Sequence record: OQ955832.1
DNA: 57,756 nucleotides
Reading direction: 5' to 3' (one strand)
Origin: Escherichia phage vB_EcoS_PJ16
Part shown: positions 1,494 through 52,334 of the stretch, one piece after another
How positions within the stretch are numbered: the first letter of the stretch is position 1
How the letters are laid out: every line of letters begins with the position of its first letter
Notes under the pieces: generated by a model
What the model was told of the DNA's origin: nothing
Databases searched by the model: none
The model's input: the letters and a program-made list of their open reading frames with translations, nothing else
Program-made: the position numbers and the translations under genes

Positions 1494-1540
1494 GTAATTT
1501 ACACTTCCCTGTGTAATCCGTCAAGAATTATTTTAAATTT
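1494..1540 (-). promoter_or_regulatory. sigma70-type promoter with UP element (conserved family)
   Basis: Minus strand: UP AT-tract, -35 TTGACG (1519-1524), 17-bp spacer, -10 TAAATT (1496-1501). Confidence 0.65.
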
Positions 1541-3768: not shown

Positions 3769-3815
3769 GAAGTCTATCTGATAATGTGTAAACCGTCAAG
3801 AATTATTTTAAACTG
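3769..3815 (-). promoter_or_regulatory. sigma70-type promoter with UP element (conserved family)
   Basis: -35 TTGACG (3794-3799), 17-bp spacer, -10 TAGACT (3771-3776), AT-rich UP element. Confidence 0.55.
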
Positions 3816-4441: not shown

Positions 4442-4741
4442 TATAACTACCGCCTGAATAGTGATGTTTACCACACAACGATCTACTTACACGTTTCACA
4501 CTTGGCCCCTTCAGCCTTGTCTATTCCACACTGCAAATATTCATTTTCTTTTTGTTCTAATGTTTTTCCACGACACAAACCAACAGTGGTACTTTCTGGT
4601 GTCATTTTATATTTCTGATAGTTTGCTTCCAGTTGTCGAACACGGTGATAGTGTGCCGGATACATTGTGCGTAACATGTGGATTTCACCACCTGTCACCC
4701 GTGGTAAACTGTATAGAACAGTTACAAACGGACCGATAACC

Positions 4742-10647: not shown

Positions 10648-10695
10648 AAAGCATAACTGCGTATCTGTAATCAGTCAAGAATTATTTTAACACCG
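10648..10695 (-). promoter_or_regulatory. sigma70-type promoter with UP element (conserved family)
   Basis: -35 TTGACT (10673-10678), -10 TATGCT-like, UP AATTATTTTAA. Confidence 0.5.
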
Positions 10696-10721: not shown

Positions 10722-10760
10722 ATACGTTAAGAACCGTAAACCGTATGGAGCCTGTAGAAC

Positions 10761-12869: not shown

Positions 12870-12916
12870 GTAGGTTACACATCCTTGTGCAATCCGTCAA
12901 GAATTATTTTAGATTA
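12870..12916 (-). promoter_or_regulatory. sigma70-type promoter with UP element (conserved family)
   Basis: -35 TTGACG (12895-12900), 17-bp spacer, -10 TAACCT; leader nearly identical to promoter at 27470. Confidence 0.55.
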
Positions 12917-13152
12917 TCATAGACAGGCGGTAAACCCATTGCGGCCTGTACAGACCGTTTTTCGTATTCCTCCCGAAGTTTCTGAAGCTGTTCAATACCG
13001 ATGTCACAACCACGCATTATATCAGCGCACAGGTCGTTGTAGGTCGCTTCAGATTGTTTGCTGTGTGGGTAATCAACACAGGATGGATCTGCAATAATGA
13101 CTTTCGGCAGATACGCGACAGTATCGCCCATTGCGTTTTTAAATATCGTCAT
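12904..13152 (-). CDS. Hypothetical protein (82 aa)
   Basis: Track ORF. Confidence 0.45.
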   Translation of the reverse strand: MTIFKNAMGDTVAYLPKVIIADPSCVDYPHSKQSEATYNDLCADIMRGCDIGIEQLQKLREEYEKRSVQAAMGLPPVYDNLK

Positions 13153-13478
13153 AAGTACGATCCCACAATTGCAGCACAGTTGACGATCGCTAAACGCGTT
13201 GCTTTTTCACGGTCTTCTCCGTGGCTAACTGGTTGCTTATAACTAACGCCAGTATCAGGGTTATTAACCGTCACTTCGTTGTCACGAACATCCAGATCCA
13301 TGTACATGTTAACCATCAGACTGAAAGCATCCTCATTACGTGTAAGAGGGTTCCACAGGCGACCATTACCTATATCAATACCTTCGTTTATGTAACGTTC
13401 GTCGTACGCGATGTAATATTTACCCTGGATTTCAGCAGCCCGTGCTGCGTTGACTAATAAATCACGATTGTTCATCAT
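13149..13478 (-). CDS. Hypothetical protein (109 aa)
   Basis: Track ORF, ATGA-coupled. Confidence 0.45.
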   Translation of the reverse strand: MMNNRDLLVNAARAAEIQGKYYIAYDERYINEGIDIGNGRLWNPLTRNEDAFSLMVNMYMDLDVRDNEVTVNNPDTGVSYKQPVSHGEDREKATRLAIVNCAAIVGSYL

Positions 13479-13978
13479 ACCCGTCCTGTTGATCCAAACC
13501 CGCCATTACGCTGACTATCAACATCTGGTAATTCTTCCACTTCAACCAGGTTAACAGGTTCGACACGTTCAACCATAAGCTGACAAACGCGTTCACCGTC
13601 TGCGATGGTCTGTAATTTCTGCCCGTGGTTAGTCAGCGTAACGTAGTATTCTTCTTTGTAATCACGATCACCGATACCCACACAGTTGATCAGTGACAAA
13701 CCGTGTTTAAGACTCATGCCGGAACGTGGATAGAATTTAATGCAATATCCGCTATCAACTGACATTTTCAAACCAGTGGGGATCATAGCGCGGTCGCCGG
13801 GCCATAATGCGATTGTTCCTGCAACAACCGGACGTTCCACTTTAGCGCCTGATTCTGTGAATATAGTTACCGATTCTTCCCACAGGCAAGCACGAACGTC
13901 TAACCCGGCGCTGTCCGGTGTTGCACGTGTCGGAAGTTCAGCGCGGGGTGTTAGTTTTTTGATATACAGGTTAGTCAT
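13475..13978 (-). CDS. dut: dUTP diphosphatase (dUTPase)
   Basis: All five dUTPase motifs: SAGLD, PRSG, GIGDRDYK, GERVCQL, RNGGFGSTGR. Confidence 0.85.
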   Translation of the reverse strand: MTNLYIKKLTPRAELPTRATPDSAGLDVRACLWEESVTIFTESGAKVERPVVAGTIALWPGDRAMIPTGLKMSVDSGYCIKFYPRSGMSLKHGLSLINCVGIGDRDYKEEYYVTLTNHGQKLQTIADGERVCQLMVERVEPVNLVEVEELPDVDSQRNGGFGSTGRV

Positions 13979-14010
13979 TGTTTGATTCCTCAGTGTGTTT
14001 CGTTCGTGAC

Positions 14011-14058
14011 AAATGTTAGTGTTACTGCTTGCAATGTGTCAAGAATTATTTTAAACTT
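14011..14058 (-). promoter_or_regulatory. sigma70-type promoter with UP element (conserved family)
   Basis: -35 TTGACA (14037-14042), 18-bp spacer, -10 TAACAT (14013-14018). Confidence 0.55.
14029..14057 (+). promoter_or_regulatory. Putative divergent plus-strand promoter overlapping the minus-strand element
   Basis: TTGCAA-17 bp-TAAACT on plus strand; same arrangement recurs at 44612. Confidence 0.35.
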
Positions 14059-14085
14059 CTGTCAACGTTAACCAATGAGGAATAA

Positions 14086-14745
14086 ATGATGCGTAACTTT
14101 AACTGGAGTGAAGCACCTAACTGGGCTACATGTGTTGTTAAACCGAAAATTAAAGAACTCAGTGATGATTATCACTGGTCAGAAGAACCCTGTGCATCTG
14201 CACGCGTGATGAGAATTGAAACAGGTATTGGATTTACAATGAACTGTGAAAATTTCTGGGAAATCGTTGAAAAACGCCCTGTAGGTTCACCACGGGATGT
14301 AACGGTTACTCGTGTTAACGACGACCAGTTAGTCAAATATGGTTATACTATTCATACCAATGATAAAATAGCAAAATATGAACAACCATCAACAGTAACC
14401 CGTGCGTCTAGACCAACACCACCGTCAAATTGTCGGTGTACATTCACCCCTGTTCAACAACCATCAACAGCGTCTGACTTGCTGAAACAGGCTGAACAGC
14501 TACTGACAGAACGTGGTAAGCAGTACGACACGTCTGGTCAGGAACGTTCGTCAGCTAAAATCGTTGCTGCGTTTAACGCAATTACCGGGCGCGACTTAAC
14601 ACCGGGTGAAGGGTGGTTGTTTCTGATGTTGTTAAAAGCGGTTCGTTTCTATTCCAATACTGAAACACCACATCGTGACAGTCTGGAAGACCTGATCAGC
14701 TATGCTGCATTACATGCAGAGGAATATCTTAACGATGAACGGTGA
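14086..14745 (+). CDS. Hypothetical protein (219 aa)
   Basis: Track ORF; Cys-containing N-terminal half, helical C-terminal half. Confidence 0.5.
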   Translation: MMRNFNWSEAPNWATCVVKPKIKELSDDYHWSEEPCASARVMRIETGIGFTMNCENFWEIVEKRPVGSPRDVTVTRVNDDQLVKYGYTIHTNDKIAKYEQPSTVTRASRPTPPSNCRCTFTPVQQPSTASDLLKQAEQLLTERGKQYDTSGQERSSAKIVAAFNAITGRDLTPGEGWLFLMLLKAVRFYSNTETPHRDSLEDLISYAALHAEEYLNDER

Positions 14746-14917
14746 ACAAGCATTCGACCTTCTGGTTAAATACGACATTATTGTTATTCACTGTGACCGT
14801 GAACAAATCGTTTTCACAGACGATCTTCGTTATGAAGAACCTTATGACGGTGATAAACGGTCTGCCACGATTCGGTTAATCGAACGTGTGGCACGTGACA
14901 GAGGGGAACTATTATAA
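14735..14917 (+). CDS. Hypothetical protein (60 aa)
   Basis: Track ORF 14702-14917 trimmed to ATG 14735. Confidence 0.4.
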   Translation: MNGEQAFDLLVKYDIIVIHCDREQIVFTDDLRYEEPYDGDKRSATIRLIERVARDRGELL

Positions 14918-15111
14918 TGGTTCAAACTATTTCTGAATTACTACCCACCGTTTATGGCAACGTGACAGAACTTGCCAGGCGGATTGGGTGTAACAAAGCG
15001 ACAGTTTATAAATATATGGATGACACCAACGGTGAATTTCACGCAGTGGTGAATGGTAAGTTGATGGTCAGACCCGGTTTTAAAGGACGTTATAATCGTG
15101 ACAAAAGATGA
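14917..15111 (+). CDS. Hypothetical protein (64 aa)
   Basis: Track ORF. Confidence 0.4.
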   Translation: MVQTISELLPTVYGNVTELARRIGCNKATVYKYMDDTNGEFHAVVNGKLMVRPGFKGRYNRDKR

Positions 15112-15245
15112 AAAATTATTACGTGAACTTGAAATAGACTACGAACGAGCACAAAAAGCGTTACAGTTTCTGGAAGAACAGATCCGCGAAGTTAAGAATC
15201 GCATTCAGGGAACTGAAAAACGTAATCTTCCACGCCCGTAACACG

Positions 15246-15254
15246 TGATATAAT
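15246..15254 (+). promoter_or_regulatory. Extended -10 element TGATATAAT (putative late promoter)
   Basis: TGnTATAAT with no clear -35, immediately upstream of hairpin and head gene. Confidence 0.4.
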
Positions 15255-15256
15255 CG

Positions 15257-15283
15257 GCCTCAGTGTGTTAACTGAGGCTTTTT
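15257..15283 (+). terminator. Hairpin plus T5 (terminator and/or RBS-sequestering leader)
   Basis: Stem gcctcag/ctgaggc; right arm contains the GAGG SD of the 15284 gene. Confidence 0.5.
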
Positions 15284-16243
15284 ATGGCTACTAAAGACCC
15301 ATACCCGGATATTTCAGACAAGTATGACGCTCGCATTCGCGAAGCACTTGACGTTGTGTGGGAAAACGTGCGTCGTAGTGAGTCGTTAGCCAACCTGGAA
15401 TACATCATTGAAACTCAGGGTATTGCCGGATTACTCCCCATTCTTGAAACACTCCCTGATGAACTTAGTGCACAGTTGCGCCCGGTTATTGAAGATGCGA
15501 TCGCCGAATCAGGTCGTGTAGTCGTTCAGGTTTTACCGAAAGCGGCTGTAACAGGTCCGGTTGTGTTTAGTCTGGTCACCCCACAGGTCAGCACATATAT
15601 CAACAACTATGTCGGACAACTGATCCGTGAAGTCAGTGACGAAACAGTCAAAGCTGTTCAGATTGCTGTTAACCAGGGTGTGGTAACCGGACGAAATCCG
15701 CGTCAGATAGCCCGTGATTTTCGATCGTCAATAGGGTTAACCACACGGCAGGAAATGACGGTTCAACGTCTGCGATCAGCACTGGAAAAAGGTGAAGCAG
15801 GTTATGTGAACAGTCTGACCACTGTTACAGACAGTGGGAAGAACGCTGTAAGTGCCGGGAAACTATCACAGGCGAAGATTGACCAGATAATCGAACAGAC
15901 ACGCTTGCGTTACGTAAAACAGCGTACAGAGACAATAGCGCGTACTGAATCACTTCGTGCTGTATCAGTTGGTCAGGATCAGGCAATACGTCAGGGACAG
16001 ATTACCGGGGCTATTAGTAATGAATTGCTGAAGCGCTGGTTATACAGAAAGGATGGTCGGACACGTGATGCGCATATTTCCACGGGTGAAACGAATGGCT
16101 GGATACCAATGAACAGACCGTTTTCAACGCCGTTAGGACCACTTATGTTTCCTCGTGATCCTAACGGTAGTGCAGCGAATGTGATTAATTGCCGTTGCCG
16201 GGTACAGTACAGTTTGCCGGAAGATATAGGTTCGTTGGGTTAA
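15284..16243 (+). CDS. Head morphogenesis protein (Mu F / SPP1 gp7-like, putative)
   Basis: 319 aa; position after portal; C-terminal region resembles minor head protein family. Confidence 0.55.
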   Translation: MATKDPYPDISDKYDARIREALDVVWENVRRSESLANLEYIIETQGIAGLLPILETLPDELSAQLRPVIEDAIAESGRVVVQVLPKAAVTGPVVFSLVTPQVSTYINNYVGQLIREVSDETVKAVQIAVNQGVVTGRNPRQIARDFRSSIGLTTRQEMTVQRLRSALEKGEAGYVNSLTTVTDSGKNAVSAGKLSQAKIDQIIEQTRLRYVKQRTETIARTESLRAVSVGQDQAIRQGQITGAISNELLKRWLYRKDGRTRDAHISTGETNGWIPMNRPFSTPLGPLMFPRDPNGSAANVINCRCRVQYSLPEDIGSLG

Positions 16244-17171: not shown

Positions 17172-17545
17172 TACGCGCACCTCGATAGTCGTCTTAATTT
17201 AACGATCAACCTTGTGACTTTACTCCAGTCAGATTCAGTAAAGTCGTCCACATCTTTAGCCCATAACTCATTAACATGTCGTGGGTTATATGGTTCTTTC
17301 TTAACTGGCTATTTCCGTTTCTTTTTACCCATAGGTTATAACCCAAGTAAAAGTTTAAGCGCACATTTACGAGCATCGTTGACCATTTTTAATAATTCTT
17401 GTGTATCAATGGTGCGATCAGCGTGTTTAATCAGTTCATTCATACTATTAACCTCTTACTATTCCTACGACCACAGGTGCTGCGAAAATCATGAAAGCCA
17501 GTATGTAGTAAATCATCGCATGTCTCCTTTTTCTTCCTGTTAACC

Positions 17546-17592
17546 ACAGGGTAGTTGTGTCGGTGTAATTTGTCAAGAATTATTTTAAAGAT
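17546..17592 (-). promoter_or_regulatory. sigma70-type promoter with UP element (conserved family), left arm of divergent pair
   Basis: -35 TTGACA (17571-17576), 17-bp spacer, TACCCT; inverted copy of promoter at 17898. Confidence 0.55.
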
Positions 17593-17880
17593 ACAGCTAA
17601 TACAGAACGTGTACTAACTGCACATATTTCTACATAGGTTTCATGATTTTGAGTTGCAGCTAATACAGAACGTGTATTAGTAGATCATAGATTCATAGAT
17701 TTCGTCATGTTTATTTTTTAACCAACCTCTCTCTATCTTATTCTTTTTATTATCTTTTTATAATAAAAAGATAATAAACATAATAAACATAGATAAATAG
17801 AAGAGTAGTATAAGTAGTATAAGTTGCTGCAAGTAGGAGAGGTTTAAAAGGTATAGGGAGTCGCATACTTCCCATGAATC
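17581..17880. repeat. AT-rich non-coding repeat hub B
   Basis: No ORFs; direct repeats cagctaatacagaacgtgta x2, catagat repeats; homologous to window-end/start region. Confidence 0.65.
17746..17778. repeat. Perfect palindrome (16-bp arms, 1-nt centre)
   Basis: tttttattatctttttat a ataaaaagataataaaa read directly; core TTATCT...AGATAA also present at window junction. Confidence 0.8.
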
Positions 17881-17928
17881 TATACGTAAAATAATTCTTG
17901 ACGGATTACACCGACACAAATACCCTGT
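17880..17928 (+). promoter_or_regulatory. sigma70-type promoter with UP element (conserved family), right arm of divergent pair
   Basis: TAAAATAATTCTTGACGGATTACACC; -35 17898-17903, TACCCT at 17921-17926. Confidence 0.55.
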
Positions 17929-17956
17929 GGTTAAGAAAACAAGAAGGGTTGAATGT

Positions 17957-21466: not shown

Positions 21467-21820
21467 ATGCGTAATTCATATGATCCGTCACTGAAATATG
21501 TTTTCACCCGTCCGATGCTGTGGAATGGTAAACAGATGTCCGCTGGCGATAAAGTATCAACATCAAAAGCTATCCCGGCTGTTTTAAATGCCCTTGTGCG
21601 TATGCGCCACATTGAACCAGCTACTGCGACCGTTGAAGAACCAGTGACTGTAGCAACCGAAGAATCGGTATCAACCACAGCTGCTGAAATCCGACGTGAC
21701 GCGCCAAAAACCTATAACGTTTATGTTATGGGTATGCCGATGAATTCAGAATCATTCAGCAGTAAAAGTGCCGCTGCTGAATGGTGTGAATCTCAAGGCT
21801 TGACATATAACTATTCTTGA
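21467..21820 (+). CDS. Hypothetical protein (117 aa)
   Basis: Track ORF 21428-21820 trimmed to ATG 21467 with GAGG RBS. Confidence 0.45.
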   Translation: MRNSYDPSLKYVFTRPMLWNGKQMSAGDKVSTSKAIPAVLNALVRMRHIEPATATVEEPVTVATEESVSTTAAEIRRDAPKTYNVYVMGMPMNSESFSSKSAAAEWCESQGLTYNYS

Positions 21821-22573
21821 CCTATTGTTAGTTGTAGATAGTTTTCGTGGCGACTTTGCGGACTTTTTAGAAACTGACCACAAAGATAAATGCAAACGAA
21901 GAACGTTTTCTGATGGCGGCGTAATAGCCTGTAAGTCAGCAAGGTCTTCCGATTCCTTGTAAATAAATTCGGCGCACTGGCCCGGTGTGATTAATAATGG
22001 GCACCCACGAATGAGAGTATTGTGATTGATCGTCGTTCTTGCGCGCAAAGTCTGCTCGAAGACAGTATTCTCATTCGTGGGTAACAACGGGCGTGTCGCC
22101 TTAGTAAATCCCTCAAGGGTGCAGCGAATAATCCGGTAATGTCGTTGCCGTAAGCCGCACGAAACGTGGCACACAACAGGTAAGAGCATTTGGTCAATGC
22201 GAAGTTATTCGCGCAGACGTAAGGCCTAATTGTCGGCAGTGCTCTTATCGTTGTGGTGAATTGCAGTTCTCAGAAACAACCAGAAGATAAGCGTCTGGCA
22301 CCACAACACAAACACTCGCTGATAAGGAGGTGATCCTTATCTTGCTGGCGGGAAAGCCGCAAATCGTGGGTAAAGCATGTTGTGAAACATCCTGAACTGC
22401 GTGTCGTTTTACATAACTGGTTATTCACGTGTCACGCATAGGGGTATGTTGGGACGTCAGGTGTGGATGACCAGTTATGTAAAACCCTCATTATCACCCA
22501 GAGCCATTTGCCGTCTGTTTAAGACGGCTTTTTTCGTGCTAATATAACGAAAACATTTCTCACAGGTGATCAC
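21821..22573. other. ORF-free structured intergenic region (about 750 bp)
   Basis: All plus frames closed; minus ORFs lack RBS; long hairpins, palindromes and a terminator at its 3' end. Confidence 0.6.
22510..22534 (+). terminator. Rho-independent terminator
   Basis: Stem gccgtct/agacggc then T6. Confidence 0.7.
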
Positions 22574-25751: not shown

Positions 25752-25812
25752 GTTGCGTAATTTGTACAGAACTATTATTATCTAATCGTCTAATACATAA
25801 AAGGTAAAAACC

Positions 25813-27444: not shown

Positions 27445-27492
27445 GTAGGTTACACGTCTTTGTGTAATCCGTCAAGAATTATTTTAAACGTT
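27445..27492 (-). promoter_or_regulatory. sigma70-type promoter with UP element (conserved family)
   Basis: -35 TTGACG (27470-27475), 17-bp spacer, TAACCT; leader paralogous to 12895 promoter. Confidence 0.55.
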
Positions 27493-27550
27493 TGTCGCTT
27501 TTTAGACCCGTGTTAAACTGTGTACATGCTTCGTGAAAAGGTTAACCACA

Positions 27551-31480: not shown

Positions 31481-34001
31481 AGTCATCTATCACACTAATC
31501 CTGTTGAACACGCTGATAACGTTGACTTTGGTGAATGGATGCTGAAACGCTGGCCCGTGGGTACTGTTCGCCCGCGTGGGTTACTGATTTATAAAAACGA
31601 CGAAAACATTACCCAGAAATGGGTCACTGACCCCAGCGTATTAACTGATCCTGATGCTGTTTATCACATTTATGAATTACCAAAAGGTGGGGTGATTAGT
31701 GCAATAACGAAAGTTATTAGCACAATTCTAAACCCCATTTTAAAATTGTTCATGCCGAATACCAGTGCGTCGGCTAATCTTAAGAACTCACGTTCAGCGT
31801 CGTCTAACAACGCGCTTCAGGGGCGTACCAACGCTTCACGACCGGGTGAACGTATTTCTGATATCCGTGGTCGTGTACTGGCATATCCTGATCTGTTAAT
31901 GGACTACCGAATCTTTATTGACCGAACAGAATATGAAGTTCAGTTCCTGTGTCTGGGCGCTGGTGAATACGAAGTCGAAGACGTTCGTGACGGTATTACA
32001 CCTGCGGTAAATATAAGTGGTGAAAAATTAGACTTTTATAAAAAAGGTAATGCACCAGGGTATGGTTCTCCATATATGAATATCGGTGGTGCAATTGATA
32101 TTAACACTTTTCCGATCATGGTTGCTAAGTCATCGAACGAAGCAGACGGATCTGAAGTTAAGCCACCAAACTATGCTGATATTAGTAAAGCAAGTTTTAA
32201 AATTTACAGCACAGGTGAAATTGATACTACGATTTCCAGCGATGATAACACTACTATTGACTGGTCGGAACGTGCACCAATCGGTAGTAAAATACGTTTA
32301 TCGCAATTTTACAGTTTTACACCTAATACTTTACCGTTAAACACGTATGTACGTAATGACCTGTCCGGTGATTACGATGTTATTTATGCAGGTGAGAATA
32401 CGTTAATCATTGATACTAATGGTCGTGATGGTTGGGATGCTCTGTCTGAAAGTGGTCAGGCTGCGTATACACAGGCTTACTTGCGAAATGACGGTTACTG
32501 GGAATTTGAAACCACTGAAGGAAGTGGAAGTTTTTTATACAAATTTTCACCATCTCTTGACAGCACTATGCCGTATATTGTCGGACCTTATCTGATCGAT
32601 AGTGCGGATAAGCTGATGATCAACCTTTATGCACAGAATGGTGTGTATAAAACTGATGGTGATATTTATCCGTTTACCTGTGACTTCCAGGTAGTCTTGT
32701 CAGACCCGAACGGTGTAAAAGCGAATGTGACACACTCTATGTCTGTCAGTGGTCGCTATACAGAAGCTGTAGGCAGTTCATTAATTGTGGATAATCCTTT
32801 TGACGGTCCTGTCAATGTGTCTGTAAGACGACTGTCAAACACAGATAAAGATTTCGAAGGGTCTGTTGTTGACAACATCAAGTGGCGCGATTTATACGCT
32901 ATAACGAACGTTTCTCCGCGTTCCTATGGTGATGTGACATTGATTCATACAGTGACAAAAGCAACAAACGCGGCACTGAAACAAAAAGAACGTAAATTAA
33001 ACATGATTGCAACACGCGTGTATAACGATGTTGCAAGTAGTAATTTTGCAGATGTTGTAATGTCAATGCACACAGATCCTTTATTTGGTCGTCGCACATT
33101 GGACACTATTGATCGCGATGCTTTATATGCTGTTCAGGAACAACTTCTTGAATATTTTGGTGACCAACGAGCAATTGAAGTTGGCTATACGTTTGATAAT
33201 AACAGTACGACGTACGAAGAAGGATTGGACACTATCTGTAACACGGTGAATGTTAAACCGTATCAGATCGGTAGTGTATTGTATTTCTGGCCTGAATTAC
33301 CGCAAGACCAGTCTGCAATGCAGTTTGGTCATGCGTTTAAAATTCCTGACAGTGATAAACGCACACGTTCTTTTGCACCACCTAAAGAATATACTGGTGT
33401 TCAGGTTAAATATTTCGACCACGATGAAAAATCATATTTATATGTTACTAAAGGCGAAGAAACAAACCTTAATAAAATAGACCTTGTTGCATGTCAGTCG
33501 CGATACCTTGCAAACATCCGTGCTAATCGTGAGATGAATAAATTACGTTACCAGCGTATTACTCACGAGTGCACAGCACTTAGTATCGGGTTACAGGCTA
33601 CCCCGGGTATGCGTGTGGATATGATTGACAATACCCGTATGAAACAACACGAAGGTGTTGTTGTCGATGTTGACGGTTTAACACTTATTCTCAGCGATCC
33701 TGTTACATTCACCACGGGTAATACATACAGCATAACGTTAACACACCGACTGGGAACACTTGAAAACATTCCTGTAACTGCCGGGGATGATGAATTTTCA
33801 GTGGTAATGGCTTATCAACCATCTGAAGAAATTTACACGGGGTGGTTGCGTGACCGTACCGCATACGTGATCCGTACTGATGATGAAAGAAGTAAATTAG
33901 CAATGCTTGTTCAGAACATGGAACCGTCAGGAAGGGATAATAACTATCAGGTAGGTTTAACGTGCATCAATTACGATGCACGTTATTATCAGGATGATTA
34001 A
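31473..34001 (+). CDS. Tail tip / host specificity protein (I/J-like)
   Basis: 842 aa; last gene of tail module. Confidence 0.55.
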   Translation: MSKVIYHTNPVEHADNVDFGEWMLKRWPVGTVRPRGLLIYKNDENITQKWVTDPSVLTDPDAVYHIYELPKGGVISAITKVISTILNPILKLFMPNTSASANLKNSRSASSNNALQGRTNASRPGERISDIRGRVLAYPDLLMDYRIFIDRTEYEVQFLCLGAGEYEVEDVRDGITPAVNISGEKLDFYKKGNAPGYGSPYMNIGGAIDINTFPIMVAKSSNEADGSEVKPPNYADISKASFKIYSTGEIDTTISSDDNTTIDWSERAPIGSKIRLSQFYSFTPNTLPLNTYVRNDLSGDYDVIYAGENTLIIDTNGRDGWDALSESGQAAYTQAYLRNDGYWEFETTEGSGSFLYKFSPSLDSTMPYIVGPYLIDSADKLMINLYAQNGVYKTDGDIYPFTCDFQVVLSDPNGVKANVTHSMSVSGRYTEAVGSSLIVDNPFDGPVNVSVRRLSNTDKDFEGSVVDNIKWRDLYAITNVSPRSYGDVTLIHTVTKATNAALKQKERKLNMIATRVYNDVASSNFADVVMSMHTDPLFGRRTLDTIDRDALYAVQEQLLEYFGDQRAIEVGYTFDNNSTTYEEGLDTICNTVNVKPYQIGSVLYFWPELPQDQSAMQFGHAFKIPDSDKRTRSFAPPKEYTGVQVKYFDHDEKSYLYVTKGEETNLNKIDLVACQSRYLANIRANREMNKLRYQRITHECTALSIGLQATPGMRVDMIDNTRMKQHEGVVVDVDGLTLILSDPVTFTTGNTYSITLTHRLGTLENIPVTAGDDEFSVVMAYQPSEEIYTGWLRDRTAYVIRTDDERSKLAMLVQNMEPSGRDNNYQVGLTCINYDARYYQDD

Positions 34002-36037: not shown

Positions 36038-36063
36038 CTTTAAGTCTCCAGGAGTGTAGAACA

Positions 36064-36387
36064 ATGTCTGATAACCCAGTGTTGAGGTATTGGCCTATAA
36101 TAGCATTTGTTGCCACGGGGTTGGTAGGTTACGGGGTAACTCAAAACCAAATCAATTCTAATGAAAAAGATATTGCAGATGCAAAAACCTATGCGCATGA
36201 GGCGCTTAATCTGGCAAAGCGAGTGGAATCCCGAGTGGATGTCCACGACATCAAAATCGAATATCAGGCAACACAGAACGCTGAAATCCTCACCAGTGTT
36301 AAAGAGCTAACACAGTCAACAAATGACCTGAAAGTTGTTATTGAAGGTTTGAAAGCGGAACAACGTAAAACCGGGAGTAAGCAATGA
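36064..36387 (+). CDS. Membrane protein with N-terminal TM helix and coiled coil (lysis-associated, putative)
   Basis: 107 aa; AGGAG RBS; first gene of lysis cassette. Confidence 0.5.
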   Translation: MSDNPVLRYWPIIAFVATGLVGYGVTQNQINSNEKDIADAKTYAHEALNLAKRVESRVDVHDIKIEYQATQNAEILTSVKELTQSTNDLKVVIEGLKAEQRKTGSKQ

Positions 36388-42603: not shown

Positions 42604-43749
42604 TTAAAGTGGACGTGCGCCAGTCGGCATCGTCACGGGTTTATTAAAAACAGATTCTGCCAGTGTGCTGTGACCTTTACGCGGGTCACTGTCAGGTACT
42701 AAAACTGGCTGACCTTCTGGTTTTGTAGTACACATGTCAACAAGTGCCGGGGGCAGTGATTTTTCCAGTGTTGACAACGGTTTTAATTTACGTTCGTACA
42801 ATGTTTCAGGGTTTACACCAAACATGGGTGCAGCACCGATCAGTTTTCCTTCGTCCGTAAGCTGACGTCGGGTTTGCTTTGTTGCGAGTTTAAAACCCGG
42901 TAAAGCCTTACCCATGCGAACAAAATGTAACCCCTGAGTATGTAACGCTGTTTTTGCTTCAGAAGAACGCGTATACAGTTCTTCAAGAAGTGCCAGACGA
43001 CGCGCTACTTCTTCTGGCGTAAGTGATGCTGGTGCATCAAGAACAGTAGCCAATTCTAAAACCCTCTCATACATCGCCGGACACATACCACGCGCCGGAC
43101 AGTAATGACAATGACTACCAACATTTAACGGTGCGTCTGGTTTATGTGCTTCGTTAAACCCGTGTTTAAATCGTTCAACCCAGTCCATCAATGTCACCCG
43201 GTTAAACTCCCATCGTCTTACAGGTCCGAGTGGGTGATAAGCCCGTGGCTGAACGATTGTGAACACAACACGCTTAACAGTATCAATACAACGTTGATCC
43301 AGTGCGTAATAGATCCCCTGTGAGTTATCAACTGCTTCAACTGCAACATGACCGTATTTATAATCCCATACGTAAAGCGTATCAGTATTAAAGTCATACC
43401 AGCGATAATCACAGGTTCCGTACTGACCGGGTAACAACCAGTCAATGTGAATGCGAACTTCTGAAAACAGCGGATCGAGTTTCGCACCAACTGAAAGAAC
43501 ATCTGCTATAAAGTCATCCGCGTAAATGTGCATGTCTTCAGTAACCTGAACACCGTTAGGAGCAAGACACGGCATTAATGGCGGTTTACCTTTAATCTTC
43601 TGTTCTAACACCCAGTGCCCGGCTGTACCTTCTTCAGCACTGGGTGACGATGGTTCTACATAGTCAATCCGCTGTGACAGTTGAACGCTACCCGGACAAG
43701 CTAACCAACGTTTTGATCCACTGGCACTAAAGGTAGCGTGACTTGTCAT
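42604..43749 (-). CDS. PD-(D/E)XK nuclease, DUF2800 (Cas4-like) family
   Basis: N-terminus HATFSASGSKRWLACPGS and C-terminal Cys cluster CHYCPARGMC. Confidence 0.65.
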   Translation of the reverse strand: MTSHATFSASGSKRWLACPGSVQLSQRIDYVEPSSPSAEEGTAGHWVLEQKIKGKPPLMPCLAPNGVQVTEDMHIYADDFIADVLSVGAKLDPLFSEVRIHIDWLLPGQYGTCDYRWYDFNTDTLYVWDYKYGHVAVEAVDNSQGIYYALDQRCIDTVKRVVFTIVQPRAYHPLGPVRRWEFNRVTLMDWVERFKHGFNEAHKPDAPLNVGSHCHYCPARGMCPAMYERVLELATVLDAPASLTPEEVARRLALLEELYTRSSEAKTALHTQGLHFVRMGKALPGFKLATKQTRRQLTDEGKLIGAAPMFGVNPETLYERKLKPLSTLEKSLPPALVDMCTTKPEGQPVLVPDSDPRKGHSTLAESVFNKPVTMPTGARPL

Positions 43750-44501
43750 CAGAATGCCCCACCCATTTGTTTAACAGACTCAGCCTGACCGACAATATTT
43801 TCAGCATCAGCAGGGGCAGCGTTGATACGTTCAATCAGTTCGATGATAGATTTCAGTTTCACCGGGTCATCAATTTGCATCACGTTCTGAGTTTCATACA
43901 GTCCCATGATTCGCTGACTTAACGGCGCAGCACGGTCACCCGTAATTTGTCCAAACATCTGCATCAGTGCTGACTGAAGAACCTGGGTGTTATAAACTTT
44001 AGCCGGATCCGTGGTTACAGGTTGCTCAGCAGGCGCGACTGGTGCTGCTGGTGCTGCTGGTACAACTGGAGCTACCGGAGCGGCAGGAACCGCTGGAGCA
44101 GGATCAACAGGTGCTACATAACCCGGTGCAAGTTCTGCAGGTCCAGTATAACGCCCTGCTTCAACTGCTTCAGCGATAAGTTCACGTTTAACACCGTCAA
44201 CAAACGCTTCATCCAGTTTTTTCTTCTGACGCCACAGACCGTCACCTTTGTTCAGGGATTTACTGTCAGTGTGGATACGCGGATCATGACGCAAACCCCA
44301 TTTGTCGAACTCTTCAGTGCTGGTTTCGTTATCGTCAACATCTTCAGTTGGTGCAGATACAACAGGTAGTGATTCAGCAACGACAGAAACGATTTCTTCT
44401 TTCGTAATCGGTGAGACACTTTTACCAGCAATCGCCGCTGCCAGATTGTTGATCGCAGTTTCCAGACCCGGAGCAGTTACAAGTAATTTAACTTCGAACA
44501 T
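43749..44501 (-). CDS. Hypothetical protein with Pro/Ala-rich linker (250 aa)
   Basis: Track ORF; first gene after promoters 44557/44620. Confidence 0.5.
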   Translation of the reverse strand: MFEVKLLVTAPGLETAINNLAAAIAGKSVSPITKEEIVSVVAESLPVVSAPTEDVDDNETSTEEFDKWGLRHDPRIHTDSKSLNKGDGLWRQKKKLDEAFVDGVKRELIAEAVEAGRYTGPAELAPGYVAPVDPAPAVPAAPVAPVVPAAPAAPVAPAEQPVTTDPAKVYNTQVLQSALMQMFGQITGDRAAPLSQRIMGLYETQNVMQIDDPVKLKSIIELIERINAAPADAENIVGQAESVKQMGGAF

Positions 44502-44531: not shown

Positions 44532-44578
44532 TAACTTTAAAAGGTGTTGTGTAATCTGTCAAGAATTATTTTACACTC
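44532..44578 (-). promoter_or_regulatory. sigma70-type promoter with UP element (conserved family)
   Basis: -35 TTGACA (44557-44562), 17-bp spacer, -10 TAAAGT (44534-44539). Confidence 0.6.
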
Positions 44579-44593
44579 ACCTTTCGTTGATGC

Positions 44594-44641
44594 AGATGTT
44601 AGAGGAATAAGTTGCAATGCGTCAAGAACTATTTTAAACTT
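44594..44641 (-). promoter_or_regulatory. sigma70-type promoter with UP element (conserved family), tandem second copy
   Basis: -35 TTGACG (44620-44625), 18-bp spacer, -10 TAACAT. Confidence 0.55.
44612..44640 (+). promoter_or_regulatory. Putative divergent plus-strand promoter
   Basis: TTGCAA-17 bp-TAAACT; 37 nt upstream of helicase GTG start. Confidence 0.4.
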
Positions 44642-44676
44642 TTTTCACGATTCGATATTAGCTGAAGGAAAGATAC

Positions 44677-47355
44677 GTGAGTCAACAACCACTTCGTTAT
44701 TACCAACAAGATGCAGTTAACAACGTGCGCCAGGCATGGTCGAACGGTGCTAATGACGTGATTCTTGTGCTTCCCACTGGCTGTCATGCTAAAGACAGTG
44801 AAATTCTTATGTACAACGGTGATGTTATAAAAGTACAGGATGTTTTACCTGGTGATTTATTGATGGGTCGTGATTCATTACCACGAACCGTGTTAGCGTT
44901 AGCTCGTGGCAGAGAAGAAATGTTTGAAATCATCCCAGTCAAAGGGTCACCTTTCCGTGTAAATAAAAATCACATATTACATTTGATACATACTGAATCA
45001 AAAGAAGAAATAGACATTTCTGTAAGTGATTACTTACAGAAATCAAATTATTTCAAACATTGCCACAAGTTGCTTCGTACGGGGGTTGATTTCGAATATC
45101 GCGAACCACCGACTTTAGACCCGTGGTTTGCCGGGATTATGATCGGTGATGGTAGTTACAAATCAGGTACACCACGTCTGACAAATGCAGACTCAAGTAT
45201 TTTAGAAAAGGCTACTTTTTACGCAAACCTTTTTGGATGTGTCTGCAAAGATGTAAAAGGTAACAACTGTGTTACACGTTATTTCGGTTATCCCGGGTCA
45301 TCGCGTTCGGTTAGTAACCCGTTGAGCGATGCGATGAAATCTGATGGATTGTGGGGGAAAATCGCACATGAAAAATCAATACCTGATGTGTATAAAAAAG
45401 GAAGCAGAAACACACGTTTAAACGTTCTGGCAGGATTAATTGATAGCGACGGATATATTTCACATAAGGGCGTTGATTTTGTGTCCAAATCACAGCAGTT
45501 AGCCGCTGATTTAGTGTTCGTTGCAAGAAGCCTGGGGAAAGCCGCGTATTACAAAGCCTGTGTTAAATCATGTCAAACGGGTAATGCAAACATTTACTAC
45601 AGAGTGAGTATTAGTGGCGATTTAAGCGATGTACCATTCGTTAGAAAACATGGTGATTTAACGAGAAAGCAGAAGAAAAATCATTTAGTAACGGGCTTTT
45701 CTGTTCGGTCTGTTGGTGAAGATAATTTTTATGGTTTTATGGTTAACGGTGACAATCTTTATCTTACGTCAGACTTCATCATCCATCATAACAGTGGTAA
45801 AACACGTACTATGGCTGAACTACTAAAATCCGACGGTGTAAAAGTCATCCAGGCACACCGCAAAGAACTAGTTAGTCAAATCGCAATGGCTGTTGCTCGC
45901 CAGGGGTTAGCACACAGATTTATAGCGCAAAAAGATACTGTTAAGTTTGCAACTAATCAGCAGATGAAAACGCTTGGTTACAGTACCTATTCCCCCGGTG
46001 CTGACATCGTTATTACCAGTTCACAAACGTTAAGAACAAAACAGTACGAACGATGGTACAACGACGTGTCTCTTGTATTCAGCGACGAAGCGCATCACCT
46101 GGTGCGTGGCACACAGTGGGGAGACTGCCGGGAAAAATTCCCTAACGCTAAAGGTCTGGGTGTTACAGCCACACCGATCCGTGCTGACGGTAAAGGCCTG
46201 GGTCGTCATGCATCAGGTTACGCAGATCAGATGATCATTGGTCCGTCAATGCGTGAATTAATCAGTCAACAACACCTGGCTGATTATCGTCTGATCATGG
46301 CTGAAACAGACCTGGAATTAACCGCAGAAATGATTTCTCATACGACGGGTGATTACAAACCATCTGCGTTAAAAAAAGCGATGGAAGATTCAAACATTGT
46401 TGGTGATACCGTTAGTACGTGGAAAACGTATGCAGATGGTTTACTCACTGTTGTGTTTACGTGTGATGTGGATTCTGCTGAAGCACTTGCAAAAGAATTT
46501 CGCGATGCTGGCATTCCTGCAGAGGCGATCAGTTCACGAAACAGTAATCAGGAACGAGCGGATATTCTGGAACGTTTTGAACGACGTAAAACACTCGTGC
46601 TATGTAACAACGATTTATTCGGTGAAGGATACGACTGTCCGGCAATGGAATGTGCAGTAATGGATCGCCCCACAGAATCTTACTCTTTGTTTGTACAACA
46701 AATGGGTCGACCATTGCGTTTCAAACCCGGTAAAAAAGCACTGATTATTGATAAAGTCGGTAATGTTCGTCGATTTCTGGCCCGTGGTTTTCCACTTCCT
46801 GATCAGCATTACAACTGGTCTTTAGATGACCGTGACCGTCGTTCATCTAACAGCAGTGGGAACAGTAATACAACATGTACAAACAAGGGTGATCCTGATA
46901 ATGGTATTCCACCGTGTCTGAAGCCTTATCCGTCTGGTCTTCCGTGCTGCCCGTATTGTGGTCATGTTCCTGAAAAAGCCGAACGCTCAGGCCCGGATCG
47001 TGTAGAAGGTAATTTACGTGAACTGACACCTGAAGAACTGGAAGAATTACGCCGGGCAGTGGTGATAATCGACCGTGACCCTGTTGCAGTAAAAGAACAA
47101 ATGTTAAACGCGGGTGCACCCCCTGTTGCAGCTTACAGTGCAATGAAAAACATTCAGGCAATGAACGATGCACAGCGTAAGTTACGCAGCATGATCACCA
47201 CATGGGCAGGTATTCAGCGTGATAAAGGTATACCCGTTGATGACGCTTACAAGATGTTTTACAGGGTGTTTGGTGTTGATGTACTTAGTGCACAGGGCTT
47301 ACGTACTCGTGAAGCTAATGAACTCGCCGCAAGGGTTGCAAGTTCATTAATCTGA
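44677..47355 (+). CDS. SF2 DEAH-type DNA helicase, intein-containing precursor
   Basis: GTG start with AAGGA RBS; Walker A split as LPTG / SGKT by intein; DEAHH, TATP, QQMGRPLR motifs; C-terminal CxxC zinc ribbon. Confidence 0.85.
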   Translation: MSQQPLRYYQQDAVNNVRQAWSNGANDVILVLPTGCHAKDSEILMYNGDVIKVQDVLPGDLLMGRDSLPRTVLALARGREEMFEIIPVKGSPFRVNKNHILHLIHTESKEEIDISVSDYLQKSNYFKHCHKLLRTGVDFEYREPPTLDPWFAGIMIGDGSYKSGTPRLTNADSSILEKATFYANLFGCVCKDVKGNNCVTRYFGYPGSSRSVSNPLSDAMKSDGLWGKIAHEKSIPDVYKKGSRNTRLNVLAGLIDSDGYISHKGVDFVSKSQQLAADLVFVARSLGKAAYYKACVKSCQTGNANIYYRVSISGDLSDVPFVRKHGDLTRKQKKNHLVTGFSVRSVGEDNFYGFMVNGDNLYLTSDFIIHHNSGKTRTMAELLKSDGVKVIQAHRKELVSQIAMAVARQGLAHRFIAQKDTVKFATNQQMKTLGYSTYSPGADIVITSSQTLRTKQYERWYNDVSLVFSDEAHHLVRGTQWGDCREKFPNAKGLGVTATPIRADGKGLGRHASGYADQMIIGPSMRELISQQHLADYRLIMAETDLELTAEMISHTTGDYKPSALKKAMEDSNIVGDTVSTWKTYADGLLTVVFTCDVDSAEALAKEFRDAGIPAEAISSRNSNQERADILERFERRKTLVLCNNDLFGEGYDCPAMECAVMDRPTESYSLFVQQMGRPLRFKPGKKALIIDKVGNVRRFLARGFPLPDQHYNWSLDDRDRRSSNSSGNSNTTCTNKGDPDNGIPPCLKPYPSGLPCCPYCGHVPEKAERSGPDRVEGNLRELTPEELEELRRAVVIIDRDPVAVKEQMLNAGAPPVAAYSAMKNIQAMNDAQRKLRSMITTWAGIQRDKGIPVDDAYKMFYRVFGVDVLSAQGLRTREANELAARVASSLI
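44782..45792 (+). mobile_element. Intein with double-LAGLIDADG homing endonuclease in helicase P-loop
   Basis: Begins with Cys after LPTG, ends HN before Ser; LAGLIDSDG and FAGIMIGDG motifs; 337 codons in frame. Confidence 0.8.
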
Positions 47356-50529: not shown

Positions 50530-50577
50530 GGACGTGTAAAATAATTCTTGACGAATTACAGATATGTGCGCTATAGT
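50530..50577 (+). promoter_or_regulatory. sigma70-type promoter with UP element (conserved family)
   Basis: TAAAATAATTCTTGACGAATTACA; -35 50548-50553, -10 TATAGT 50572-50577. Confidence 0.55.
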
Positions 50578-51905: not shown

Positions 51906-52297
51906 TAATAGTCGTTACAGGCGGTCGTGACTTCAACGACAGAACAGCGGTATTTTCAGCATTAGGGTTACTTCACAAACAATTCCCGGTTACCGAACTG
52001 ATTGAAGGCGGTGCATCAGGTGTTGATAACCTGTGTAAGCAATGGGCGCAATTACACGGTATTCCTGTACGTAGTTGCCCGGCAGCATGGGACGATCTGA
52101 CTGTACCAGGTGCGGTTGTAAAACAGGGTAAGCATGGGCCTTATAACGCTGTTGCAGGTCATCAACGTAATCAGGCAATGTTAGAGGGTGAACCACGCCC
52201 TACATACGGTGTTGTGTTCCCCGGTGGGCGTGGTACTGCCGACATGCATCGTCGTATGTTGAAAGCTGGTTTAACTGTGTGGGTTCCATATCCTTAA
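51902..52297 (+). CDS. SLOG/LOG-like Rossmann-fold protein (DUF2493-like)
   Basis: VVTGGRDF, GGASGVD and PGGRGTADM motifs. Confidence 0.5.
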   Translation: MIIVVTGGRDFNDRTAVFSALGLLHKQFPVTELIEGGASGVDNLCKQWAQLHGIPVRSCPAAWDDLTVPGAVVKQGKHGPYNAVAGHQRNQAMLEGEPRPTYGVVFPGGRGTADMHRRMLKAGLTVWVPYP

Positions 52298-52334
52298 AAT
52301 AATTCTTGACAGATTACCAACCTCCCCCGATAAT
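52290..52334 (+). promoter_or_regulatory. sigma70-type promoter with UP element (conserved family)
   Basis: TAAAATAATTCTTGACAGATTACC; -35 52306-52311, 17-bp spacer, -10 GATAAT 52329-52334. Confidence 0.6.

What the first reader, a model, noticed from the sequence alone, without database searches (positions are those of the whole stretch)
14029..14057. Back-to-back overlapping promoters sharing one AT-rich tract
At 14029 and again at 44612 a plus-strand TTGCAA-17 bp-TAAACT overlaps the minus-strand TTGACR/UP element, so one roughly 45-bp segment could fire in both directions (toward 14086 and toward the helicase at 44677).
Basis: seen in the sequence. Interest (0 to 1): 0.4.

Follow-up and report, generated by a model that had tools for sequence, protein, structure and literature searches.

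The report
Overlapping divergent promoters in 9NA-like phage
In a 9NA/Sasha-like phage genome, two copies of a 12-copy conserved promoter box differ from the usual sequence so that the opposite strand also reads as a promoter, exactly where a gene leaves in the other direction; this is a neat but ordinary kind of compact gene control.

Summary
The sequence is as described: TTGCAA-17 bp-TAAACT on the + strand at 14029-14057 and 44612-44640. Each overlaps a minus-strand TTGACR promoter and its A/T tract.

This is an UP-like tract plus a -35, followed by nnATTRCA and a variable -10. The window is a Nonanavirus/Sashavirus phage, and 9NA, Sasha and AVIO78A carry the same 16-mer.

Most copies read GTGTAA or CTGTAA where these two read TTGCAA.

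I compared 144 distinct copies from related phages. A complete reverse promoter occurs in 21 of them, at three genomic positions. At all three, a gene starts 16-36 nt beyond the reverse -10. None of the 87 copies without a reverse gene comes close.

In both intergenic regions these sites are by far the best + strand sigma-70 candidates (9.8 bits against 5.2 and 6.4 for the next best). They score only 8 of 12, nobody has mapped start sites, and TTGCAA alone also occurs where no reverse gene exists.

Verdict: a real, probably functional pair of back-to-back overlapping divergent promoters, about 58 bp between predicted starts. It is a known kind of architecture, not the 18-bp symmetric "bidirectional promoter" class. 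Interest is modest.

The parts
14029..14034 (+). Predicted -35 (TTGCAA) of the rightward promoter, locus 1
   Evidence: Read. Conserved as TTGCAA in AVIO78A, Sasha and IMG/VR relatives, and as TTGTAA in 9NA.
14052..14057 (+). Predicted -10 (TAAACT) of the rightward promoter, locus 1. It lies inside the A/T tract of the leftward promoter. Predicted start about 14064.
   Evidence: The leader would include the Shine-Dalgarno GAGGAA at 14077-14082 ahead of the ATG at 14086 or 14089.
14037..14042 (-). -35 (TTGACA) of the leftward family promoter, locus 1
   Evidence: 10 of 12 matches. AVIO78A's GenBank record annotates the orthologous minus-strand promoter.
14013..14018 (-). -10 (TAACAT, 18-bp spacer) of the leftward promoter. 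Predicted start about 14006.
   Evidence: The dUTPase gene starts at 13978 with its Shine-Dalgarno just upstream.
14038..14053 (-). Invariant family 16-mer TAAAATAATTCTTGAC (UP-like tract plus -35)
13475..13978 (-). dUTPase gene, first gene of the leftward operon
   Evidence: Pfam PF00692, E = 7e-19.
14086..14745 (+). DUF6378-domain gene, first gene of the rightward operon (then NinH and head morphogenesis)
   Evidence: Pfam PF19905; synteny with AVIO78A.
44612..44617 (+). Predicted -35 (TTGCAA) of the rightward promoter, locus 2
   Evidence: Identical in Sasha and AVIO78A.
44635..44640 (+). Predicted -10 (TAAACT) of the rightward promoter, locus 2. Predicted start about 44647.
   Evidence: Shine-Dalgarno AAGGA lies about 8 nt before the GTG at 44677.
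44620..44625 (-). -35 (TTGACG) of the upstream leftward family promoter, locus 2
   Evidence: 9 of 12 matches.
44596..44601 (-). -10 (TAACAT, 18-bp spacer) of that promoter. Predicted start about 44589.
44534..44573 (-). Second, gene-proximal leftward family promoter: 16-mer 44558-44573, TTGACA, 17 bp, TAAAGT. Its reverse strand reads only GTGTAA-17-TACACT.
   Evidence: It is the top weight-matrix score in the window, 14.0 bits.
43749..44501 (-). First gene of the leftward replication operon (followed by exonuclease, SSB-like protein, DNA polymerase)
   Evidence: AVIO78A and Sasha annotation.
44677..47355 (+). Helicase gene (intein-containing), first gene of the rightward replication operon
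   Evidence: Pfam ResIII and Helicase_C, plus Hint and LAGLIDADG.
1520..1535 (-). Family 16-mer copy (tandem context; reverse strand GTGTAA-17-TAAATT)
3795..3810 (-). Family 16-mer copy (reverse strand GTGTAA-17-TAAACT; no reverse gene)
10674..10689 (-). Family 16-mer copy at the portal divergent region (reverse strand CTGTAA-17-TAACAC). The portal gene has its own TGaTATAAC further on.
12896..12911 (-). Family 16-mer copy (tandem context)
17572..17587 (-). Family 16-mer copy, left arm of a 48-nt inverted repeat
17887..17902 (+). Family 16-mer copy, right arm of the inverted repeat. It drives the head-gene operon.
27471..27486 (-). Family 16-mer copy at the tape-measure divergent region. The reverse gene has its own TTGTCG-16-TGtTAAACT at 27492-27519.
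50537..50552 (+). Family 16-mer copy (tandem context)
52295..52310 (+). Family 16-mer copy (tandem context)

Best explanation
**What it is.** The window is the genome of a virulent 9NA/Sasha-like siphophage. Its main promoters form a family that is probably read by host sigma-70 RNA polymerase. Each has an A/T tract at the position of a proximal UP element, fused to a -35: TAAAATAATTC-TTGAC. This is followed by nnATTRCA, then a -10 at a 17-18 bp spacing.

**What differs at the two sites.** In two divergent intergenic regions the usual GATTACAC after the -35 is replaced by CATTGCAA. Together with the AGTTTA at the distal end of the A/T tract, the complementary strand then reads TTGCAA-17-TAAACT. 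This second, weaker sigma-70 promoter drives the rightward operon. At locus 1 that operon is the DUF6378 gene, NinH and head morphogenesis. At locus 2 it is helicase and primase.

**Geometry.** The two -35 hexamers are 2 bp apart on opposite strands. The rightward -10 occupies the leftward promoter's UP-like tract. The predicted starts are about 58 bp apart.

**Consequence.** The polymerase footprints would overlap by roughly 50 bp, so the two promoters probably cannot be occupied at once and must compete.

**Shown versus inferred.** Shown here: the sequence anatomy, the family, its conservation, and the link between a complete reverse promoter and a closely adjacent reverse gene. Inferred: that either promoter fires, the start positions, the UP-element role, and the competition.
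For: **The family is real and looks like a promoter family**
- It has 12 copies in the window, and 9NA, Sasha and AVIO78A share the same 16-mer.
- Every copy sits upstream of a gene in the right orientation, with a -10 at 17-18 bp.
- Family members take 12 of the top 20 weight-matrix scores in the window.
- AVIO78A's record annotates the minus-strand promoters at both loci.

**A rightward promoter is needed, and this is the only candidate**
- The genes upstream of 14086 and 44677 are on the other strand.
- The only + strand candidate above 6.4 bits in either intergenic region is the one in the finding (9.83 bits).
- The predicted leaders, 21-30 nt long, contain the Shine-Dalgarno sequences.

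**Comparative test**
- Of 144 distinct family copies, 21 score at least 9.4 bits on the reverse strand. The next best scores 7.1.
- All 21 lie at the dUTPase, helicase or Sasha gp06 loci, where a reverse gene starts 16-36 nt beyond the reverse -10.
- None of the 87 copies without a reverse gene reaches 8 bits.
- By locus cluster the script's table was 3/1/1/25, Fisher p about 0.004. The one cluster scored 'not close but high' is the Sasha-type helicase locus, whose Shine-Dalgarno my pattern missed. Counting it by hand as close gives 4/1/0/25 and p about 2e-4.

**Pattern across relatives**
- 9NA has a single copy at the helicase locus, positionally equivalent to the window's gene-distal-from-helicase copy. 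That copy carries TTGCAA-17-TATGAT.
- In the window, where a second copy lies next to the helicase, the displaced copy reads GTGTAA.
- The first base of the reverse -35 varies freely (G, C, A or T) among orthologues at other loci, but is always T at these loci.
Against: - The + strand hexamers match only 8 of 12 and fall below the scan threshold.
- TAAACT partly follows the family consensus and also occurs at non-divergent copies, for example 3794.
- TTGCAA alone occurs in tandem contexts. One example is the ParB locus in some IMG/VR relatives, where it is paired with TGAACT.
- The two sites share CATTGCAA and CTAACAT, so they may be paralogues rather than independent events.
- One IMG/VR lineage has a different layout at the dUTPase locus: GTGTAA-16-TATAAC, with TTGCAA-17-TAATCT placed 27 bp further away.
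- My weight matrix uses remembered consensus frequencies.
- The locus clusters and the 'close gene' criterion were defined after looking at the data.
- There are no start-site, RNA-seq or reporter data.
Confidence: 0.65

Rival explanations
1. Only the leftward family promoters work. The + strand TTGCAA and TAAACT are by-products of a repeated A/T-rich box and a sequence subfamily (CATTGCAA). The rightward operons are transcribed from something that does not resemble sigma-70 hexamers, for example a factor-dependent middle or late promoter, or by read-through.
For: - The + sites score 8 of 12 and are not called by the scan.
- TAAACT is close to the family consensus.
- TTGCAA occurs without a reverse gene at the ParB locus of relatives.
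- Other rightward structural genes use a distinct extended -10 type, TGnTAAACT or TGaTATAAC.
Against: - The combination of both hexamers is exclusive to copies with a closely adjacent reverse gene, with a clean score gap of 9.4 or more against 7.1 or less.
- No other + strand candidate exists in the 108-nt and 175-nt intergenic regions.
- Read-through would have to run antisense through a whole minus-strand cluster and past predicted bidirectional terminators.
- 9NA improves the reverse -10 to TATGAT.
Confidence: 0.22
2. The invariant box is primarily an operator for an unidentified phage or host DNA-binding protein that switches the whole family on or off. The CATTGCAA variant changes that protein's binding at two loci rather than creating a promoter.
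For: - Conservation extends beyond what sigma-70 RNA polymerase is known to read, notably ATTRCA in the spacer. The 16-mer is identical in phages that are only about 80% identical overall.
Against: - There is no clear dyad symmetry, by inspection only.
- The -10 elements and spacings fit sigma-70 at every copy.
- No candidate regulator was identified or searched for.
- This idea does not explain why a T-A-n-n-n-T hexamer accompanies TTGCAA only where a reverse gene is close.
- It is compatible with the best explanation rather than exclusive of it.
Confidence: 0.1
3. The match is pure chance: two weak hexamer pairs in A/T-rich intergenic DNA.
For: - A site scoring at least 9.83 bits occurs by chance in 2-4% of stretches of these lengths.
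- About two dozen intragenic sites in the window score as well.
Against: - The site is conserved at both loci across relatives whose flanking sequence diverges.
- The association with gene arrangement holds across 144 copies.
Confidence: 0.03

Closest known systems
Back-to-back (overlapping) divergent sigma-70 promoters of divergently transcribed operons, as classified by Beck and Warren 1988 (recalled from memory, not checked here)
   Same: Two genes leave one short intergenic region in opposite directions. The promoters lie on opposite strands with overlapping polymerase-binding regions. The upstream region of one is the core of the other.
   Different: - Here the arrangement is built by editing a multi-copy phage promoter box.
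- The -35 hexamers are only 2 bp apart.
- No regulator is known for this region.
- Function is untested.
Bidirectional promoters with a symmetric -10 element (Warman et al. 2021, as summarised in PMC10268837 and PMC12825309)
   Same: One short A/T-rich segment can engage RNA polymerase in either orientation, and one binding event would exclude the other.
   Different: - That class is defined by divergent starts 7-25 bp apart, mostly 18 bp, with -7T and -11A reciprocally paired in one shared -10.
- Here the two -10 hexamers are 33 bp apart and the predicted starts about 58 bp apart, so it is not a member.
Conserved strong early-promoter families of virulent coliphages with A-rich upstream regions, such as T5 and T7 A1-A3 (own knowledge)
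   Same: - Multi-copy promoters dependent on host RNA polymerase.
- A conserved A/T-rich upstream segment and a near-consensus -35.
   Different: - The 16-mer and the ATTRCA spacer block are specific to 9NA-like phages.
- I found no description of them in the searchable literature.
- The family also drives the head-gene operon at 17887, so it is not clearly 'early only'.
rrnB P1-type UP element (Estrem et al.; own knowledge)
   Same: An A/T tract (TAAAATAAT) lies immediately upstream of the -35, at about -46 to -38, the position of the proximal subsite.
   Different: Only a sequence resemblance was seen. Binding by the alpha C-terminal domain and stimulation were not tested. At the two loci the same bases would double as a -10 on the other strand.

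Membership tests
Sigma-70 (-35/-10) promoter, leftward copies | -35 hexamer close to TTGACA, 16-18 bp spacer, -10 with A at position 2 and T at position 6 | tested here: met
   TTGACA-18-TAACAT (10 of 12), TTGACG-18-TAACAT (9 of 12) and TTGACA-17-TAAAGT (10 of 12).
Sigma-70 (-35/-10) promoter, rightward (finding) sites | -35 hexamer close to TTGACA, 16-18 bp spacer, -10 with A at position 2 and T at position 6 | tested here: inconclusive
   TTGCAA-17-TAAACT scores 8 of 12. It keeps TTG and TAnnnT but falls below the scan's 9 of 12 threshold. On the weight matrix it scores 9.83 bits and ranks 37-38 in the window.
Sigma-70 (-35/-10) promoter, rightward (finding) sites | Placed so that the transcript carries the ribosome-binding site of a downstream gene on the same strand | tested here: met
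   Predicted starts are about 14064 and about 44647. The Shine-Dalgarno sequences lie at 14077-14082 and about 44664-44668. The start codons are at 14086/14089 and 44677.
Sigma-70 (-35/-10) promoter, both directions | A mapped transcription start, or promoter activity | not testable with these tools
   No transcriptome or start-site data for 9NA-like phages were found.
Symmetric bidirectional promoter (Warman et al. class) | Divergent starts 7-25 bp apart (mode 18 bp) sharing one near-symmetric -10 | tested here: not met
   The definition comes from PMC10268837. Here the -10 hexamers are 14013-14018 (-) and 14052-14057 (+), and the predicted starts are about 58 bp apart. The same holds at locus 2.
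Back-to-back overlapping divergent promoters | Divergent genes flank one intergenic region, with promoter elements on opposite strands whose polymerase-binding regions overlap | tested here: met
   The gene starts are 13978 (-) and 14086 (+), and 44501 (-) and 44677 (+). The -35 hexamers are 2 bp apart. This was met at the sequence level only.
UP element | A/T-rich -38 to -59 region that binds the alpha C-terminal domain and stimulates transcription | tested here: inconclusive
   TAAAATAAT is invariant directly upstream of the -35 in all 12 copies. Binding and stimulation cannot be tested here.
9NA-like phage promoter box (defined here) | TAAAATAATTCTTGAC followed by nnATTRCA, intergenic, with a -10 at 17-18 bp and a gene downstream | tested here: met
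   The locus 1 copy at 14038-14053 is exact. The locus 2 copy at 44621-44636 has one mismatch (A to G). Both have ATTGCA.

The most novel reading that the evidence does not exclude
The overlap may be a designed competition switch. The strong leftward family promoter and the weak rightward promoter cannot be occupied together. A family-wide shut-off of the box would then automatically release the rightward operons, setting their timing. The shut-off could come from an unidentified phage factor that reads the invariant 16-mer and the ATTRCA block. A variant of the same idea holds that the box is a so far undescribed phage operator shared by a dozen promoters.
Probability: 0.12. Interest if true: 0.5.

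Novelty: new member of a known kind. Interest (0 to 1): 0.3.

Why it matters
- **Testable promoter map.** It gives an understudied phage group (Nonanavirus/Sashavirus) a promoter map that can be tested. Existing GenBank annotation marks only the leftward promoters.
- **Small edits, new function.** Two or three base changes in a repeated promoter box can recruit the complementary strand as a second promoter where genome mosaicism places a divergent gene.
- **Practical use.** The box is a compact, probably strong, host-polymerase promoter cassette, with a natural two-way variant.
- **Limits.** It does not change any general concept of transcription.

Tried and rejected
**Dead ends and low-yield searches**
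- The consensus promoter scan finds the minus-strand promoters but not the + strand ones. I therefore built a weight matrix from remembered frequencies.
- The key 9NA-group genomics paper (Zeng et al. 2019, PMC6819911) is not held, so I cannot say whether it already describes the box.
- A full-text search for the motif string found nothing.
- The 9NA genome announcement and the AVIO78A, BASEL and PDP46 papers say nothing on these promoters.
A longer pattern worked.

**Methods that needed correction**
- My greedy gene caller misclassified several contexts; for example it called the portal locus 'tandem'. I replaced it with a Shine-Dalgarno plus start-codon search and inspection by eye. That search in turn missed the Sasha-type helicase start, which I corrected by hand.

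**Ideas considered and rejected**
- Structured RNA or tRNA in the region: no Rfam or ARAGORN hit.
- The Warman-type symmetric bidirectional promoter: the spacing does not fit.
- Alternative rightward -10 candidates, GATATT at 44653 and TAAATG at 14083: no -35, and the start would cut the ribosome-binding site.
- IHF-like or dyad-operator readings of the box: by eye only, not convincing.

Full report
**What the window is.** The region 13000-15500 is 95-97% identical to Sashavirus 536P12 and to Escherichia phages PDP46, AVIO78A and KarinMuster (Bas82). It is about 79-83% identical to Salmonella phages 9NA, SP069 and Sasha. The window is therefore a virulent 9NA-like siphophage genome, Nonanavirus/Sashavirus. 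In relatives, the rightward virion and replication genes are interrupted by leftward clusters of small genes. This creates many points where the coding strand switches.

**Checking the observation.** The + strand reads TTGCAA (14029-14034), 17 nt, TAAACT (14052-14057). It reads the same at 44612-44617 and 44635-44640. The scan tool finds the minus-strand partners: TTGACA-18-TAACAT at 14042-14013 (10 of 12) and TTGACG-18-TAACAT at 44625-44596 (9 of 12). It also finds a second leftward promoter, TTGACA-17-TAAAGT, at 44562-44534. It does not report the + strand sites, because they match 8 of 12 and its threshold is 9.

**What it belongs to.** The core sequence is repeated. TGTCAAGAATTATTTTAMACT has 10 matches at 3 or fewer mismatches, with 0 expected. 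The 16-mer TAAAATAATTCTTGAC has 11 exact copies and one copy with one mismatch. The positions of its first T and the promoter strand are:

| Position | Strand |
|---|---|
| 1535 | - |
| 3810 | - |
| 10689 | - |
| 12911 | - |
| 14053 | - |
| 17587 | - |
| 17887 | + |
| 27486 | - |
| 44573 | - |
| 44636 | - |
| 50537 | + |
| 52295 | + |

In promoter orientation each copy reads agTtTAAAATAATTC-TTGACr-nATTrCA. A sigma-70-like -10 follows at 17-18 bp: TAAATT, TAGACT, TATGCT, TAACCT, TAACAT, TACCCT, TAAAGT, TATAGT or GATAAT. A gene then starts downstream. I built a rough sigma-70 weight matrix from Hawley-McClure-type frequencies recalled from memory. Family members take 12 of the top 20 scores in the window. 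The same 16-mer occurs 11 times in 9NA, 9 times in the first 50 kb of Sasha, and 11 times in the first 50 kb of AVIO78A. It is under strong constraint in genomes that differ by about 20%. AVIO78A's record annotates the minus-strand promoters at both loci of the finding and nothing on the other strand. I found no description of the box in the searchable literature. The main comparative paper on this phage group is not held.

**What is special about the two sites.** After TTGAC, most copies read rGATTACAC. The opposite strand then shows GTGTAA, CTGTAA or GTGCAA where a reverse -35 would lie. Only the copies at 14053 and 44636 read CATTGCAA, which gives TTGCAA. Both lie in divergent intergenic regions:
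- dUTPase (start 13978, minus) against a DUF6378 gene (start 14086, plus);
- a replication gene (start 44501, minus) against the helicase (start 44677, plus).

The reverse -10, TAAACT, is the outer end of the A/T tract. It is partly a family feature: 6 of the 12 copies have T-A-n-n-n-T there, including the non-divergent copy at 3794.

**Is the reverse promoter more than chance?** Four lines of evidence bear on this.
1. *Within the window.* The two sites score 9.83 bits, rank 37-38 of 346,356 combinations. A random stretch holds such a site in 2.3% of cases at 108 nt and 4.1% at 175 nt. They are the only + strand candidates in their intergenic regions; the next best score 5.2 and 6.4 bits.
2. 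*Across relatives.* I collected family copies from the window, 9NA, Sasha, AVIO78A and IMG/VR contigs. This gave 144 distinct contexts. Reverse-strand scores split cleanly: 21 contexts score at least 9.4 bits and the next scores 7.1. All 21 lie at three genomic positions:
   - the dUTPase locus, TTGCAA or TTGTAA-17-TAAACT;
   - the helicase locus, TTGCAA-17-TAAACT in Sasha-type phages and TTGCAA-17-TATGAT in 9NA-type phages;
   - Sasha's gp06 homing-endonuclease locus, TTGCAA-16-TATAAT.

   In every case a reverse gene starts 16-36 nt after the reverse -10. None of the 87 contexts without a reverse gene reaches 8 bits.
3. *By locus cluster.* The script's two-by-two table was 3/1/1/25, with Fisher p about 0.004. 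The single 'not close but high' cluster is the Sasha-type helicase locus, whose ribosome-binding site my pattern missed. Corrected by hand, the table is 4/1/0/25 and p is about 2e-4. These figures are rough, because the criteria were set after seeing the data and the clusters are related.
4. *Positional pattern.* 9NA has one copy in the helicase intergenic region, and that copy carries the reverse promoter. The window and Sasha have two copies. Only the one next to the helicase carries the reverse promoter, while the displaced copy reads GTGTAA. The first base of the reverse -35 varies among orthologues at other loci, for example TTGCAA, CTGCAA and CTGTAA at the portal locus. It is T in all 21 complete cases.

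**Counter-evidence.**
- TTGCAA also occurs without a reverse gene. At the ParB locus of some IMG/VR relatives it is paired with TGAACT, which lacks the key A. CATTGCAA may therefore simply be a subfamily variant.
- The two sites in the window share CATTGCAA and CTAACAT and may be paralogues.
- One IMG/VR lineage has a different solution at the dUTPase locus: GTGTAA-16-TATAAC, with TTGCAA-17-TAATCT (7.7 bits) placed 27 bp further out. The need for a rightward promoter is met there, but not by this exact layout.

**Other divergent loci use a different layout.** Each of these genes has its own promoter-like elements just beyond the A/T tract:
- portal: TGaTATAAC, about 10722-10730;
- tape measure: TTGTCG-16-TGtTAAACT, 27492-27519;
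- tail chaperone in Sasha, AVIO78A and 9NA: TTGCGT-17-TACTAT or TATTAT.

In these cases the tract lies upstream of both -35 regions and could serve both as an UP-like element.

**Mechanism, inferred.**
- *Locus 1, leftward:* UP-like tract about 14043-14057, -35 at 14042-14037, -10 at 14018-14013, predicted start about 14006. The product is the dUTPase operon.
- *Locus 1, rightward:* -35 at 14029-14034, -10 at 14052-14057, predicted start about 14064, with a leader of 21-24 nt that contains GAGGAA.
- *Locus 2:* the same geometry, with starts at about 44589 and about 44647. A second leftward promoter lies downstream, with a start at about 44527.

With 58 bp between starts and -35 hexamers 2 bp apart, the two polymerases would need the same roughly 50 bp of DNA. 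This rests on established footprint sizes of about -55 to +20, which is my own knowledge. Mutually exclusive binding and competition are therefore likely, with the leftward promoter the stronger (11-12 bits plus the tract, against 9.8 bits). None of this was measured.

**Comparison with known systems.** This works like classical back-to-back overlapping divergent promoters. It is not a member of the symmetric bidirectional promoter class. That class requires divergent starts 7-25 bp apart, typically 18, sharing one -10. The family resembles the conserved, A/T-rich, host-polymerase promoters of other virulent coliphages (own knowledge), but its sequence is specific to this phage group.

**Verdict.** It is a new example of a known architecture. 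Interest is 0.3.

Noticed in passing
window 44677-47355 (+): The helicase ORF is 892 aa, against about 553 aa in AVIO78A, Sasha and 9NA. It carries an intein with a LAGLIDADG homing endonuclease inserted after 'LPTG' near residue 36. Pfam hits are Hom_end_hint at 36-116 and LAGLIDADG_3 at 247-314, and ResIII resumes at 373.
   Followed up: partly
window 17540-17934: A 48-nt inverted repeat (17540-17587 and 17887-17934, 94% complementary) consists of two outward-facing family promoters. They flank a 299-bp A/T-rich non-coding stretch. That stretch holds a 33-nt direct repeat (17584 and 17647) and a 24-nt near-palindrome (17738-17786). It is conserved in relatives and may be an origin or control region.
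   Followed up: partly
window 4702-4712, about 10722-10730, 27492-27519, 25753-25781: The rightward virion genes appear to use a second promoter style, an extended -10 or TTGCGT type. TerL has TGgTAAACT, portal has TGaTATAAC, tape measure has TTGTCG-16-TGtTAAACT, and the tail chaperone has TTGCGT-17-TATTAT. The motif TGTACAGAAC recurs near the TerL and chaperone starts in relatives. TAAACT is the -10 in four rightward promoters of the window.
   Followed up: partly
window 21806-21821 (+): TATAACTATTCTTGAC is a degenerate family copy with 3 mismatches. It lies next to a strong TTGACA-17-TATTGT match at 21800 (13.2 bits), downstream of the capsid genes. AVIO78A annotates a promoter at the equivalent place.
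   Followed up: no
L015/L016 (IMG/VR 3300014770_000007, 3300045988_047713) against window 13979-14085: The roughly 100-bp divergent control region is almost identical in phages whose flanking genes on both sides are different. The leftward gene is not a dUTPase, and the rightward gene has a different N-terminus. The promoter module therefore behaves as a conserved joint between mosaic segments.
   Followed up: partly
9NA NC_025443.1 43133-43378 (gp69): The annotated start of 9NA gp69 leaves only 12 bp to the divergent gp68 and places the family promoter box inside the coding sequence. The likely true start is the ATG at about 43229, preceded by GGAGA. This restores an intergenic region of about 108 bp.
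   Followed up: partly
window 33998-36064 (-) and 36064-36387 (+): The tail fibre gene and the holin gene diverge with essentially no intergenic space. Their promoters must therefore lie inside coding sequence. This was not examined.
   Followed up: no
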